Source of the DNA: Octopus vulgaris
Lineage: Eukaryota
Direction: 5' to 3'
Length of the DNA stretch: 64,000 nt
NCBI GenBank assembly: GCA_951406725.2
Contig: OX597818.1
Span: forward strand, 33,976,001 to 34,040,000
Both the position numbers and the translations under genes were made by a program. Of this stretch, positions 11,398 to 61,553 are shown in pieces (position 1 is the first letter of the stretch; each line of letters starts with the position of its first letter). Below the pieces are notes generated by a model, which saw only the letters and a list, made by a program, of their open reading frames with translations, had not been told where the DNA came from and did no database searches.

Positions 11398-11595
11398 TAA
11401 TCCAAACACGAAAACACAAAGAGAAAACACAACAACACGAGGACGTGGAACAAATATAGTATTATTGGACGCCCAGGAAGGAAGGGAAGAAAGAGTATTT
11501 TGCATTTCGAGCGGAGCTCTTCGTCAGAAACATAGGAAAAGGAAAGATCCAGAGAAGGGAAGACAGGAGGAAAATGGCCAACGGTACACACACCA
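11398..11595 (-). mobile_element. Short hammerhead-bearing element family H1 (Penelope-like non-autonomous) in (TA)n
   Basis: Homologous to 15815-16006, 16795-17002, 38250-38335 and 61345-61553. Minus strand 11497-11531 reads gttt CTGACGA a gagc-tcc-gctc GAAA tgc aaaa. Confidence 0.7.
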
Positions 11596-12372
11596 TATAT
11601 ATATATATATATATATATAAGATGAGGTGGTCATACCTGAAGCACCTTTGACCATTGACCTCTTCGATCAGAATTGACTTGAAGCTTAACCCCAACTACT
11701 ATAAAAACTTTAAAGATGCCGATTAGTAAGGTAGTATGGTCGAGATATATTGAGATAGTGAGAGAGTAACAGAAACATCTGAGAGAGAGAGAGAGAGAGG
11801 GATAGAGAGAGTGAGAAAGAGAAATGTGAAAGTATAATATAAAAAGAATACATACGTCCATCTCATCTGCTTAAAACTAGCCACCATCTTGCTTTTTAGC
11901 ACATACAGTGGAATGGAATTTCTGAAGCTGATCAAGGACAAAAGATTTCGATACCGACTTGACATCACAACCCAATGAATATAACGGAAACCTATTCGTT
12001 GTTAGCCTAAGGCAATGTATACTCTTAAGAAAAAGGTGATAGTTTATATAATAAAGAGGAACTGTAACTATATATGTGATTCAAACAGACAAAGGATTCT
12101 ATCGCAGTGCAGCATTAGTCTTGTTTGTCACCAATTTTTCAATATAAAGATTCGGGATTGTTTGATGTCCATTATTAAAGCATTCGCTCAAAGCACACAA
12201 TATTATTGATTACATTATTTTCTATAATAAGCATGATTCCAGTGCTACACTTTTGTGGTGAATTCCCAGCATGCCAATATATTTCATCGATCCTTAGAGA
12301 ACTAAAAGGTACAGCTGACCTTGGTGATATTTGATCTGACCAAGAAGAACGGGGTAACTAGCACACATTTTG

Positions 12373-12805
12373 GTGTGGTAAGTAGCTTGTTTACCAACCA
12401 CATGGTTCCGGGTTCAGTCCCACTGCGTGGTACCTTGGGCTAGTGTCTTCTACTATAGCCTCGGGCCGACCAAAGCCTTGTGAGTGGATTTGGTAGACGG
12501 AAACTGAAAGAATCCCGTCGTATATATGTATATATATATATATATATATATATATATATATATATATATATATATATATATATGCGTGTGTGTGTTTGTG
12601 TGTCTGTGTTTGTCCTCCTAGCATCGCTTGACAACCGATGCTGCTGTGTTTATGTCTCCGTTACTTAGCGCTTCGGCAAAAGATACCGATAGAATAAGTA
12701 CTGGGCTTACAAAAAGAATAAGTCCCGGGGTCGAGTTGCTCGATTAAAGGCGGTGCTCCAGCATGGCCGCAGTCAAATGACTGAAACAAGTAAAAGAGTA
12801 AAGAG
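12373..12805 (+). mobile_element. SINE family A, near full length
   Basis: gtgtggtaagtagcttg..ggttcagtccc B box, internal (TA)n(TG)n, tail ggcggtgctccagcatggccgcagtcaaatgactgaaacaagtaaaagag. Confidence 0.93.
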
Positions 12806-13929
12806 TATCTTAATATCCACCTCTAACCTTCGTAACAAAACAATACATTTTAGAGGCGAGAACAGTAGATTACATTTAACTCAGTTTTGAACGGATGTTT
12901 TTTTTAATTGAGGTTTAAGGATGGGAGAGATGAAATATAAAGTTCACCTCAGAAGATTTGAACTCAGAACACACAGAAATTTCAGAGGATTTTCTCCGAT
13001 TCTATCTATTCAGCCAATCATTCCAACAGGCATTTTAATATCAAACACGTAAATCACCAGTTCGAAATCCAATATCTTCTACAAGTATCCAAAGAAGAAG
13101 ATGTGACTTAATCGCTAGATTTACCTAAAAAATAGCAGCCAAATTCTTTCAGATCACCAGGAATTACAATAAGCAAAGGGATGATCAGAGGTCTGGCTGG
13201 GAATTAATCAACGACAATAATCATCACAAGGTATTTTGTTCGACACACCAGTCATTCTGTCAATTTTAGATAACAAGCACACAGATCAAAGGGTCAAATT
13301 ACAACACTCTCCATGACCAACGAGATGTAACCATCCTGTAGCAGAAGAAATAAAGTATCTGGTGGAATTTCGGAATGTCGACATATTTCATTGTCGATGT
13401 ATCAACTTATTACTGTATAAAATACTGGCTTTGATATCGGATACCCTAACTTCATCGGAATGCAGACATATTGTCAGCATTTTAGCGGATGTATGCGCGC
13501 ACGTGCGTGTATGTATGTGTGTGTTTGTGTGTGTGTGTGTGTGTGTGTGTGTGTGTTCGCGCACTCGTGTGTATCTGTCTATGTGCACAGACATATACAC
13601 ATAACAGAACATGTGTGTACGTGCAAATGTGTACGTGTACATATGTGCGTGTGCATGCATGTGTAAATGTTTGTGTGTGTGTATGTGTGTGTATGTGTGT
13701 GTGTATGTGTGTATGTGTGTGTGTGTGTGTGTGTGTGTGTGTGTGTGTGTGTGTGTGTGTGTGCATTATTTCATTTTATATGTAAGGGCACATATTCTGA
13801 AAGGCAGTCTATGTGTAAGTGTATCTGGGCAAAAAAAAAACTAAGAGCATTTAAATGTTTATATTTACACATGTGTGTGTGTCTATGTGTGTGTGTGTGT
13901 GTCTATGTGTGTATGTATATATACATACA

Positions 13930-14248
13930 GGCGTACGAGTGGTTGTGTGGTAAGTAGATTGCTTACGAACTACATGGTTCCGGGTTCAGTCCCACTGCGT
14001 GGCACATTGAACAAGTGTCTTCTACTATAACTCCGGGCCGACCAAAGCCTTCTGCGTGGATTTGGCAGACAGAAACTGAAAGAATCCCGTCGTATATATG
14101 TATGTGTGTAGATATATTTGTGTGTCTGCGTTTGTCTCCCCAACATCGCTTGACAACCGATGCTGGTCTATTTACGTCCCCGTAACTTAGTAGCTCGGCA
14201 AAAGAGACCGATAGAATAAGAACTAGACTTCCAAAGAATAAGTCCTGG
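13930..14248 (+). mobile_element. SINE family A, 3'-truncated and fused to a Tigger remnant
   Basis: Head and body intact; ends at gaataagtcctgg. Confidence 0.9.
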
Positions 14249-15374
14249 ATTTAAGGCGTACAAAAATCGCGTCACAATTATAATGTGTGGAAATGCTGCG
14301 CCCTTTATGATAAAGCCGGGGCTAATTTATAAGTCCCAAAACCAAAGGGCCCTCAAAGACAAAAAAATAAGAACCTGCAGCCAGTGCATTGGATGCAAAA
14401 CCAGAAGACATGGATAACGAAACCACTAACATCGGATTAATTTCACCAGTACTTCATCCCCGAAGTCAAAGTTTATCTCGCCGAAAAGGACTAGAATTCA
14501 AAGTGCTTCTCTTAATGAACAATGTCGTAAGTTACGCGCTCAACCTGTCGTATGAAGGCGTACAAATCGAATTCTTACCGAGGTCGAAGCAATGGATTCG
14601 GATGATAAATTCTCGCTGAAGGTGTACTGGTGTGGGCACACCATTGTAACGTATCTCCAAAATATTTTGAAGGCCATAAAGGAGATGAATAATGAAACTT
14701 GGAATGCCAGCTGGGAGAAATTGTCGCCAGAAGCGGTCCACGACTATAAAGGATTCTCTCCTGACGAAATTCACCACTCTGCAGTAGATAAAGAAGTGAA
14801 GCTGGAACAATTGCTAGGAAGAGATGGCTTCAACAATATGACAACCGAGGACGTTAATAATCTGATCGAGGCCCGCTCGGATATGTTAACGGATGAAGAT
14901 CTGACGTAGATAATGAAGACAGCAAGTGAGGAAGAAGAACAAGAGGATCCAGGAAAAAAAGAAGTCGACCTATCATTAGAATGCCTCTCATCTCTAGCAA
15001 AAATGGCAAAAGAGCTTCAGAGAATGGTGAAAGATTGGGACCTCTGGTTGATTTGTGCGTCGCAGTTCAGAAATGCAATCGACAGTGCTAAGGAAGTTTA
15101 TAAAAGCCTCCTTACACAAAAGAAAAGGCGGCGCCGACAACAGCCCATCGCACTGTTCTTCACCCGCAAAAAAAAGAGAAGATACGAGTACTCCTAAGAG
15201 TGTGTAGAGAGTTTATAAAGGCTTAAATATATAAATATAATAAAATAAATAAATACTAATTATAAAAGCAATTAAAAGAATATACAGTACAACAGCACTG
15301 TTTCTACTTCGCGGATTTTCACCTATCGCAGGGTTTTTTGAAAAGTAACACGTACGATAGTCGAGGAATTACTG
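14244..15374 (+). mobile_element. Tigger/pogo transposon remnant (DDE transposase 3' part and right TIR)
   Basis: PGFKAYKNRVTIIMCGNAA..KPGLIYKS..WM.N.K.WIT and FKVLLLMNN motifs; acidic C-terminal ORFs 14592-15197; right end cgatagtcgaggaattactg followed by TA. Confidence 0.88.
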
Positions 15375-15404
15375 TATGTATGTATATATATATATATATA
15401 TATA

Positions 15405-60088: not shown

Positions 60089-60169
60089 ATATGTGTGTGT
60101 GTATGTGCGTGCGTGTGTGCGTGTATAAAGATATAGGTATAATATACATATAAGAAGATGTATTTTCGG

Positions 60170-60783
60170 CCATTGACGTGATAAACCCAATTTTTGCCAT
60201 AGACTCAGATGGACTCTCAACAATTCTGTTAAAAACATGTAAGAAAGTTCTTGCAAAACCACTAAAAATGCTTTTCCAGAGTTCCCTTGAATGCAGTACA
60301 TTTCCTCAAATGTTAAAAGAAGGAATACTCTGCCCTGCCAACAAAGGAGAAAACAGAGCAGATGCTATAAACTACAGGCCTATCTCTCTAACCTCACATG
60401 CTATCAAGATCAAGGAACGCATTGTCGGAAAAAGACTGACTACGTTCCTAGAAGAAATGATTTGCTTACAGACACACAACATGGTTTCCAGGAAGAGAGA
60501 CACAGTGCTTCTGCTTTGGAGAACCTTTGTCCTCAGTAATCTGGAGTATTGTGTAAAACTAATTGCGGAACTAGAGACGATCCATTGCCACTACACAAAG
60601 AAGATAGACTCAGTTCTATAGCGTTTCCACCCACATCGCAACAGGAGGCACAACGACGAACGGCTCCGTCCAAATCGATACTTCACCAGAAGCAATACTG
60701 GAAAAATGCCCGGATGTAGCATAGGCGGTGCACCAGCATGGTCTCAGCCTCTGGTTGAAACCCATAAAAGAAATAAAAGAAAT
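60170..60783 (+). mobile_element. CR1-group LINE remnant with two large internal deletions
   Basis: DGL..ILLKTC..LAKPL..NYRPISLTSH..QHGF jumps to LLWRTFVLSNLEYC..TKKI, then to the 3' tail ggcggtgcaccagcatgg..gaaac(taaaagaaa)n. Confidence 0.82.
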
Positions 60784-60792
60784 ATACATATA

Positions 60793-61268
60793 TACTGATC
60801 TCCCCTGTTCGAAATTATAAGGACAGAATTTTTGTATCGTATGGCCAGCTGGAAACGATGCTTCCTGGGACTAAATAACAGTAACATTCGTCCTATCCTA
60901 GGACTGTCAGATTATGTTGGCAAAATGGCATTACTTTATGGTGCTGTAACTGTATATCTCTCTTTGAAAGATTTAGAAATAATAAAACTTATATTTTGTA
61001 GATCAGTAACTGTGTGTCACTTTGAAATCTATATATTTTCGGCAGCGGTTCAGTGGCGACATCTACCCAACCAAGCTACTCCACGTTGATAAAGTGCAAT
61101 AATCCAGAAACCGGTCCGTGGATGCGAAGTTGTGCTGGATGGAGCTACTGATCTCCGCTGTTCGAAAATATAAGGACACAACTTTTTTTGTCGTATAGCT
61201 AGCTGGAAACTATGTTTCCTGGGACTAAGTAACAATAACATTCGACCCATCCTGGGACTGACACATTA
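60793..61268 (+). mobile_element. Retrozyme-like element family H7: 353-nt unit plus ~120-nt direct repeat, degenerate hammerhead
   Basis: 60793-60915 is repeated at 61146-61268. 61080-61122 reads tccacg TTGATAA agtgcaataatcca GAAA ccgg TC cgtgga. Confidence 0.75.
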
Positions 61269-61344
61269 CTATAAATATATATATATATATATATATATAT
61301 ATATATATATATATATATATATATATATATATATATATATATAA

Positions 61345-61553
61345 GTTAATCCAAACATGAAAGCACAAAAAAACACAACAACGCGAGGACGTGGAACAAA
61401 TATAGTATTATTGGACGCTCAGGAAAGAGGGAAAGAAGGAGGGTTTAACGTTTCGAGCGGAGCTCTTCGTCGGAAACATAGGAGAAGGAAAGATCCAACG
61501 AAGTGAAGATAGAGGAAAAAATCGCCAACGGTACACACGCGGTCACATTTTGA
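61345..61553 (-). mobile_element. Family H1 copy
   Basis: Minus strand 61443-61477: gttt CCGACGA a gagc-tcc-gctc GAAA cg TT aaac. Confidence 0.78.

What the first reader, a model, noticed from the sequence alone, without database searches (positions are those of the whole stretch)
11398..61553. About eight unrelated families of small hammerhead-ribozyme elements colonising microsatellites
Seen: type-I hammerhead geometry (helix I / CUGANGA / helix II / GAAA / short palindromic helix III / NUH / helix I) at 11497, 16868, 17924, 26331, 27567, 41033, 43816, 53712, 56324, 59224, 59387, 61080 and 61443. Helix I pairs with a different sequence in each family (ccac/gtgg, tcac/gtga, acac/gtgt, tgag/ctca, ctgt/acag, tccacg/cgtgga, gttt/aaac). 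Helix III is repeatedly self-complementary (ACAATTGT, ACGTACGT, ACCGGT, ACTTCGAAGT, ACGT). The carriers are 150-680 bp, non-coding, and sit in or beside (TA)n/(TG)n. Established: Penelope-like elements carry minimal hammerheads in their pseudo-LTRs, thought to work as dimers through palindromic helix III, and metazoan retrozymes are small non-autonomous hammerhead retroelements. Inference: this genome hosts a diverse radiation of ribozyme-bearing mini-retroelements (roughly one motif per 5 kb here), probably mobilised by PLE proteins. I do not know whether this diversity has been catalogued in octopus.
Basis: partly seen in the sequence, partly recalled or inferred. Interest (0 to 1): 0.85.

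Follow-up and report, generated by a model that had tools for sequence, protein, structure and literature searches.

The report
Penelope ribozyme ends spawning a SINE
The ribozyme-like motifs are real and sit in copies of at least nine repeat families; two families are the ends of Penelope-like retrotransposons and the rest are likely spread by such enzymes (a known pattern), but one of those ends carries a tRNA-like segment that likely serves as its own promoter and would make it a SINE born inside a Penelope element.

Summary
Confirmed in outline. All 13 sites fall in repeat families with minimal type-I hammerhead (min-HHR) geometry; 5 scanner hits against 0 in 30 shuffles. Only about 6 of 13 window copies are intact, and three families carry a changed core. 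There are nine families, not all mini-elements. G (59224/59387) is the pseudo-LTR of a very young Hydra-type Penelope-like element (PLE; 727-codon RT+endonuclease ORF, at least 147 near-identical copies). F (53712) is a 559-bp tandem retrozyme-like unit. E (43816) is the 3' end of a decayed Penelope/Poseidon-type PLE whose pseudo-LTR contains a tRNA-Arg-like segment with Pol III A/B boxes; most E copies are short and begin at that segment (12 of 21), and 12 of 12 inverted pairs show the PLE one-tail signature. A, A2, B, C, D and H have no linked ORF yet. Diverse min-HHR families from PLEs and PLE-derived retrozymes are published; a tRNA-headed SINE arising within a PLE end was not found in my searches (nearest: schistosome Sm-alpha). 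Cleavage and Pol III transcription are untested.

The parts
11397..11591 (-). Family A copy (~230-bp monomer), decayed HHR with core starting at 11527
15802..16004 (-).
16774..17001 (+). Family A copy, U4-to-C core, helix III decayed
17745..17990 (-). Family B copy with intact min-HHR (core at 17965) and the long 3' end
17991..18176 (+). Family B inverted twin, short 3' end, decayed HHR
26325..26490 (+). Family C copy, 5'-truncated inside the HHR
27500..28130 (-). Family D copy; HHR 27568-27669 with long helix II insert; variable 5' truncation among copies
38251..38340 (-).
40945..41090 (-). Family A2 copy, core altered at position 6
43815..43908 (-). Family E body with min-HHR (core at 43855); 3' end lost to (TA)n
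43909..46408 (-). (AAT)n linker of E interrupted by two non-LTR retrotransposon 3' parts (zf-RVT; R4/Dong-like is a recalled label)
   Evidence: that they split one E copy is inferred
46409..46433 (-). Remnant (B box/T-arm) of the tRNA-like head of family E
53512..54190 (-). Family F: one 559-bp unit plus 82 bp of the next and a 35-bp inverted piece; intact min-HHR (core at 53760)
55409..55636 (-). Endonuclease remnant of an older Hydra-like PLE (38% identical to the G protein)
56290..56485 (+). Family C copy with short inverted 5' arm, decayed HHR
59120..59338 (-). Family G pseudo-LTR, long 3' end (tail), intact min-HHR (core at 59257)
59338..59457 (+). Family G inverted twin, short 3' end, intact min-HHR (core at 59391)
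60793..61270 (+). Family H partial tandem; HHR-like motif at 61080 with altered core and weak helix II
61345..61574 (-). Family A full-length young copy, U4-to-C core at 61473

Best explanation
The motifs are minimal hammerheads that lie in the terminal repeats of Penelope-like elements (shown for families G and E) and in short elements likely copied by PLE enzymes (F, B, C, D, H, A, A2), and in family E a tRNA-like segment inside the terminal repeat likely acts as a Pol III promoter that turned that repeat into a SINE. Shown: G flanks an RT+endonuclease ORF; E copies either run 5' into an RT+GIY-YIG ORF or stop at the start of the tRNA-like segment; inverted insertions of B, E, F and G carry one long and one short 3' end. 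Inferred, by analogy with the anole Poseidon element (PMC11167929): the PLE protein binds the RNA downstream of the HHR, cuts both strands of AT-rich or (TA)n DNA and starts reverse transcription at two internal sites, giving 5'-to-5' inverted pairs with one tail. Any RNA holding that 3' region can be copied: whole PLEs, pseudo-LTR transcripts with a fixed start (A, B, E) and multimers or circles (F). The HHR would cleave only as a dimer through palindromic helix III or with protein help, and is probably dispensable for copying, which explains families that amplified with a changed core.
For: G: HHRs 3,350-3,365 bp apart on one strand flank a 727-codon ORF with the Hydra motifs RWK, DKT, CxCX5C, CxxC, CxH (vs PMC8557442 section 11); model pLDDT 92.9, best Foldseek match TERT; 147 of 147 scored RT matches at 97-100% identity, about 40 in a 727-codon open frame. 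E: 9 loci share upstream DNA, which in the longer ones encodes the thumb and GIY-YIG-type end of a PLE; homologues carry RVT_1; RT-to-EN matches of 545-575 aa in this genome; 150 of 150 scored EN matches at 76-100%. Of 29 E copies taken in genome order, 20 hold the B-box part of the head, 16 the A box, 12 an inverted partner, and 12 of 12 pairs have exactly one long end (partner ends seen in full for 9 of the 12). 5' ends: 12 of 21 unbiased head-bearing copies stop within 8 nt of the tRNA-like start, 2 within 19 nt, 4 inside the head, 3 run into the ORF. Head best matches tRNA-Arg among 27 genome tRNAs (49 of 77 columns, z 7.7). F: 559-bp head-to-tail arrays of up to about 16 units, 95-100% identical, longest sense ATG frame 18 codons, circular folding energy -146.5 vs -110+/-4 in 25 shuffles, 4 of 4 inverted arrays examined with two different ends. 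Cofolding pairs helix III between molecules for B, F and G, not for A and E. U4-to-C core in 77 of the first 100 listed of 7,445 A matches and in the pseudo-LTR of another autonomous PLE.
Against: No ORF was linked to A, A2, B, C, D, F or H: blastn against about 60 loci of other PLE families found no shared pseudo-LTR, and family A shows no 5'-to-5' pair among 40 top hits or the first 100 pattern matches. The E head is not called a tRNA by ARAGORN at default (0 of 20 loci; 5 of 22 heads at a relaxed score) or by Rfam; its best tRNA match is only slightly ahead of tRNA-Ala. A and B also have fixed 5' ends without a tRNA head, so the E pile-up need not be due to Pol III. Lack of four-T runs in 17 of 20 full E units is weak (about 0.5 by chance). 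No Rfam hammerhead among the 150 of 388 rows shown. No cleavage or transcription data.
Confidence: 0.8

Rival explanations
1. All families are simply 5'-truncated PLE copies; the E head is a passenger (an old tRNA-like insertion), and the pile-up of 5' ends marks the PLE's ordinary Pol II start or a reverse-transcription stop.
For: A and B have fixed 5' ends with no tRNA head; D copies show variable truncation; PLE promoters lie in pseudo-LTRs (passage in PMC6765202); ARAGORN and Rfam do not call the head.
Against: The E ends cluster at the position where a tRNA-type start would lie, 8 nt before a clean A box, with a B box about 44 nt further (box consensus recalled); a structural stop would be expected at the 3' side of the head; F arrays of up to 16 short units cannot be truncations of a 3-kb element.
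Confidence: 0.3
2. One reading: about eight unrelated, actively self-cleaving mini-retroelements (retrozymes) whose spread depends on the ribozyme.
For: F fits a retrozyme; B, F, G, E keep an intact core in young copies; HHR-bearing families are many.
Against: G and E are ends of coding PLEs; only F forms tandem arrays; A (7,445 exact matches), A2 and H amplified with altered cores; HHR mutants did not affect insertion in vitro for the anole element (PMC11167929).
Confidence: 0.15
3. The E head plus (AAT)n is a separate SINE carried by an R4/Dong-like LINE that inserted many times into an (AAT)n run of the PLE end.
For: The (AAT)n linker is a target: the window copy holds two non-LTR elements there and other copies have foreign DNA upstream of it.
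Against: Inversion junctions fall inside or at the start of the head on both arms, so head and HHR body were one template; ORF, head and body are joined in the same way in several loci; 47 of 51 head copies in E-query loci have the body within 260 nt (biased by how loci were chosen). A single ancient insertion of this kind may still be how the PLE acquired the head.
Confidence: 0.1
4. Chance motifs in AT-rich repeats.
For: About half of the window copies deviate from the core; Rfam shows no hammerhead among the rows listed.
Against: 0 hits in 30 and in 12 shuffles; the geometry recurs with different helix sequences in every PLE end examined and in a distant Poseidon-like element from a metagenome.
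Confidence: 0.02

Closest known systems
Minimal hammerheads of metazoan PLEs (Cervera and De la Pena 2014, PMC4209133; parts 1-2 of 4 read)
   Same: Type-I core, 4-bp helix I, extra nucleotide before helix II, short palindromic helix III; many divergent families per genome, mostly single, some in close inverted pairs; core variants reported.
   Different: No octopus data in the text read (supplementary figures not seen); U4-to-C and A6 variants not mentioned in the parts read.
Hydra-clade PLEs (Craig et al. 2021, PMC8557442; section 11 and passages read)
   Same: G protein has RWK, DKT, CxCX5C, CxxC and CxH, lacks CCHH, inserts in (TA)n, HHR in pseudo-LTR.
   Different: Unit is 3.35 kb (clade described as generally under 3 kb); very young, high-copy family; no tree against named members was built; their supplementary lists were not seen.
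Penelope/Poseidon PLEs, anole PAc (Frangieh et al. 2024, PMC11167929; parts 1-2 of 4 read)
   Same: E partner has RT + C-terminal GIY-YIG-type domain without linker zinc finger, AT-rich non-microsatellite flanks, two 3' ends about 35-45 nt apart.
   Different: Its pseudo-LTR holds a tRNA-like segment and an (AAT)n run upstream of the HHR; short copies starting at that segment outnumber longer ones.
Metazoan non-LTR retrozymes (PMC7229834, passages; bioRxiv 10.64898/2026.07.22.740005, part 1 and passages)
   Same: F: non-coding, highly paired, tandem dimers to multimers, HHR in each unit, PLE-type insertion.
   Different: 559 nt against 170-400 nt; minimal rather than canonical HHR; circles not shown.
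Schistosome Sm-alpha / Sj-alpha SINE-like elements (passages in PMC2770079 and PMC6765202; primary papers not read)
   Same: tRNA-related Pol III promoter followed by a hammerhead in a short repeat.
   Different: Those are described as tandem repeats cleaved from multimers, with no parent PLE named in the passages read; E is dispersed, forms inverted pairs with a PLE tail, and its parent ORF is still attached in some copies.

Membership tests
PLE-type minimal hammerhead | Core CUGANGA...GAAA...UH | tested here: met
   Met in B, D, E, F, G; not met in A (mostly U4 to C), A2, H; C mixed
PLE-type minimal hammerhead | Short helix I and palindromic helix III | tested here: met
   read from alignments, no formal cross-family pairing test
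PLE-type minimal hammerhead | G10.1-C11.1 pair in helix II | tested here: inconclusive
   Present in A, C, E; absent or shifted in B, D, F, G, H
PLE-type minimal hammerhead | Self-cleavage as dimer or with protein | not testable with these tools
   Only cofolding; public runs held as contigs only
EN+ Penelope-like element (G) | Telomerase-like RT | tested here: met
   Best Foldseek hit TERT 3du5, E 1.3e-9, TM 0.35; Pfam gave no family
EN+ Penelope-like element (G) | Direct/inverted pseudo-LTRs with HHR and one-sided tail | tested here: met
Hydra clade (G) | RWK, DKT, CxCX5C linker, CxxC, CxH, no CCHH, (TA)n target | tested here: met
   Read from the ORF
Hydra clade (G) | Phylogenetic placement with named Hydra families | not tested
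   No named reference sequences on hand
Penelope/Poseidon clade (E partner) | RT + C-terminal GIY-YIG-type domain with CCHH residues and no linker zinc finger | tested here: met
   Pfam GIY-YIG did not hit the 186-aa piece, motif read by eye
Penelope/Poseidon clade (E partner) | Full pseudo-LTR-ORF-pseudo-LTR unit | not tested
   Same-strand E cores 2,875 bp apart at G000:C1:107191460/107194335 were not read
Non-LTR retrozyme (F) | Non-coding tandem units each with a type-I HHR | tested here: met
Non-LTR retrozyme (F) | 170-400 nt unit with canonical HHR | tested here: not met
   559 nt, minimal HHR; works like a retrozyme, filed as variant
Non-LTR retrozyme (F) | Accumulates as circular RNA | not testable with these tools
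   No raw RNA reads offered
tRNA-derived SINE (E) | A and B boxes at tRNA spacing | tested here: met
   box consensus recalled
tRNA-derived SINE (E) | Head homologous to a tRNA | tested here: inconclusive
   49 of 77 to tRNA-Arg, z 7.7 (27 tRNAs of 6 amino acids only); ARAGORN default and Rfam negative
tRNA-derived SINE (E) | Fixed 5' end at the head; 3' end shared with an autonomous partner | tested here: met
tRNA-derived SINE (E) | Transcribed by Pol III | not testable with these tools
   Only the weak T-run test
tRNA-derived SINE (E) | Target-site duplication | not tested
   PLE insertions need not make LINE-type duplications (recalled)

The most novel reading that the evidence does not exclude
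A Poseidon-type Penelope element captured a tRNA-Arg-derived Pol III promoter inside its own terminal repeat, and that repeat became a high-copy SINE mobilised by Penelope machinery rather than by a LINE; parent and offspring both survive in one genome, showing SINE birth in the act and offering a model for the origin of schistosome Sm-alpha. The whole PLE may even have been Pol III-driven.
Probability: 0.5. Interest if true: 0.75.

Novelty: new variant of a known kind. Interest (0 to 1): 0.55.

Why it matters
SINEs are understood as parasites of LINEs. Family E would extend this to the third class of retrotransposons and shows a simple route: promoter capture upstream of the PLE's internal reverse-transcription start. 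It makes a test of 'what does a PLE need in its template' easy. The same window points to an apparently active Hydra-type PLE with dozens of intact ORFs and (TA)n targeting, a clade described from sequence in the sections read, and to families that spread with altered cores, which bears on whether PLE hammerheads matter for transposition. The general abundance of PLE hammerheads in an invertebrate genome is not news.

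Tried and rejected
Rfam scan of the window: only microsatellite-driven miRNA hits among 150 of 388 rows shown. 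Pfam: no family for G. ORF beside a B copy (L080) proved to be a separate Neptune-like PLE, and an F-like match beside it a separate insertion. A PLE fragment beside a D copy (L006) is on the other strand, not linked. Searches for partners of A, A2, B, C, D, F, H through about 60 loci of other PLE families found none. Metagenome relatives of the E protein were distant (30-55%); one has a similar HHR and no visible tRNA-like head, a single case. Public runs: no RNA holder listed; four contig sets from three organism labels cover all bins of F but say nothing on expression, ends or circles. T-run test on the E ORF piece not significant. Two look-ups of earlier findings were empty. Not done, so still open: a background rate for microsatellite flanks, a formal cross-family helix I pairing test, pairwise alignment between families, a random genome sample, and reading of the candidate full-length E parent and of a B pair 3,063 bp apart.

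Full report
Observation. The window is G000:C5:33976001-34040000 of a 2.8-Gb genome. A hammerhead-like motif lies at each of the 13 coordinates. A scanner demanding core, helices I-III and the cleavage triplet found 3 exact-core hits against 0 in each of 12 block shuffles and, with four core spellings allowed, 5 hits against 0 in each of 30 shuffles. About 6 of the 13 copies are intact (17924, 27567, 43816, 53712, 59224, 59387); the others are decayed or belong to families with an altered core. In 89 kb flanking tRNA genes the same scanner found 2 (shuffles: 8 in 20 runs), so intact motifs are rarer than one per 5 kb. Self-comparison and genome searches sort the sites into nine families, called A, A2, B, C, D, E, F, G, H.

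Family G (59224/59387) is an inverted pair of pseudo-LTRs. Elsewhere the same HHR occurs twice on one strand 3,350-3,365 bp apart around a 727-codon ORF. The protein has the motifs given for the Hydra clade in PMC8557442 (section 11 read); its model (pLDDT 92.9) matches telomerase RT best. All 147 scored RT matches are 97-100% identical and about 40 sit in a 727-codon open frame: a very young burst. Inverted pairs have one arm ending before and one after a tail, both in (TA)n.

Family F (53712) is a 559-bp unit in head-to-tail arrays of up to about 16, 95-100% identical, 262 exact core matches, no sense ORF, far more folded than shuffles as a circle, and 4 of 4 inverted arrays examined have two different 3' ends about 90 nt apart. 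It works like a non-LTR retrozyme (PMC7229834; bioRxiv 10.64898/2026.07.22.740005) but is longer and has a minimal HHR. No partner was found.

Family E (43816) gave the surprise. A 33-base core matches 2,166 places exactly (control 0). Copies read: 75-nt head with A and B boxes, (AAT)n, about 60 nt, HHR, and either of two 3' ends. The head's best match among 27 genome tRNAs is tRNA-Arg (49 of 77, z 7.7), though ARAGORN at default and Rfam do not call it. Of 29 copies taken in genome order (30 loci, one duplicate dropped), 20 hold the B-box part, 16 the A box, 12 an inverted partner, and all 12 pairs have exactly one long end (9 partner ends displayed). Nine loci share DNA upstream of the head, which in the longer ones is the C-terminal part of a PLE ORF; homologues carry an RT domain, and RT-to-EN matches of 545-575 aa exist in this genome, only one of those long ones without stops. 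The endonuclease lacks a linker zinc finger, as in Penelope/Poseidon. 5' ends pile up at the head start: 12 of 21 unbiased copies within 8 nt, 3 continuing into the ORF; 16 of 30 and 3 of 30 in the query-biased set. Inversion junctions fall inside the head on both arms, so head and HHR were copied as one RNA. In the window the linker was invaded by two non-LTR elements and a head remnant lies at 46409-46433 (continuity inferred). I infer that a PLE acquired a tRNA-derived promoter in its terminal repeat and that Pol III transcripts of that repeat became a SINE copied by the parent's enzyme. Pol III use is untested; the T-run test is weak, and A and B show fixed 5' ends without such a head.

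Other families. A is a 230-bp monomer in (TA)n with 7,445 exact matches; 77 of the first 100 listed have C at position 4, and the canonical form may partly be CpG decay of it (inference). No inverted pairs were seen, so its PLE dependence is the least secure. A2 resembles A and has an altered position 6. B is young (114 exact matches), often inverted with one tail. C and D are old (about 75-85% identity), with inverted arms and, for D, variable truncation. H has A at position 8 and a weak helix II. The genome also holds several Neptune-like and an older Hydra-like PLE family with their own HHRs; none shares a pseudo-LTR with A, A2, B, C, D, F or H.

Mechanism. In vitro, the anole Poseidon protein cuts both strands of AT-rich DNA, starts reverse transcription at two internal sites that define the tail, and does not need HHR cleavage, which itself needs the protein (PMC11167929). 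This accounts for the inverted one-tail pairs and for amplification of altered cores here; applying it to these families is inference. Cofolding gave intermolecular helix III for B, F and G only.

Known versus new. Many divergent min-HHR families per genome, mostly solo or in close inverted pairs, are reported in PMC4209133 (parts 1-2 read) and 16 families in a coral in PMC7229834 (passages); PLE origin of retrozymes in the 2026 preprint (part 1, passages; no octopus). Penelope and tRNA SINE expansions in octopus are noted without ribozymes in PMC8967140 (passages); 235 Rfam hammerheads in giant squid in PMC6962438 (passages). tRNA-related SINE-like elements with an HHR are known in schistosomes (passages in PMC2770079, PMC6765202). 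PMC4758252 (passages) has no mention of Penelope or hammerheads. A SINE derived from, or mobilised by, a PLE was not found in searches; these cover open-access text only. Repbase, Dfam, the 1994 octopus SINE paper and the supplements of PMC8557442 and PMC4209133 were not seen and may already list these families.

Verdict. Real features; in the main new members of known kinds, with family E a likely new variant. Interest 0.55.

Noticed in passing
window 55409-56080 (-): Endonuclease remnant of an older Hydra-like PLE family with its own HHR in other copies
   Followed up: partly
window 57600-59053 (+): 3' part of a LINE (RT domain, 43-bp tandem repeat at 58866-58952) ending at (TA)n
   Followed up: no
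window 8560-8934 and about ten other places: Very abundant SINE-like family, often split by (TA)n; unrelated to the HHR families
   Followed up: no
window 43940-44900 and 45300-46260 (-): Two non-LTR retrotransposon 3' parts inserted in (AAT)n runs
   Followed up: partly
L198:1245-3587 and L182:763-4698: Two more young Neptune-like PLE families with many intact ORFs (781 and 1,312 codons); the longer has a long Asn-rich insert
   Followed up: partly
L203:3806, L183:1833, L212:1293, L215:1131: The U4-to-C core recurs in the pseudo-LTR of an autonomous PLE and in a G-related subfamily
   Followed up: no
G000:C4:67234431 and 67237494: Inverted family B cores 3,063 bp apart; may bracket a parent ORF
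   Followed up: no
L178:1-208: An older F subfamily, 86% identical, with changes in helix II
   Followed up: no
L187, L188, L205, L214: Further HHR families with long helix II inserts, not present in the window
   Followed up: no
P0121-P0130: Unnamed database proteins 54-68% identical to the E parent, closer than expected for distant hosts; horizontal transfer or related species not resolved
   Followed up: no
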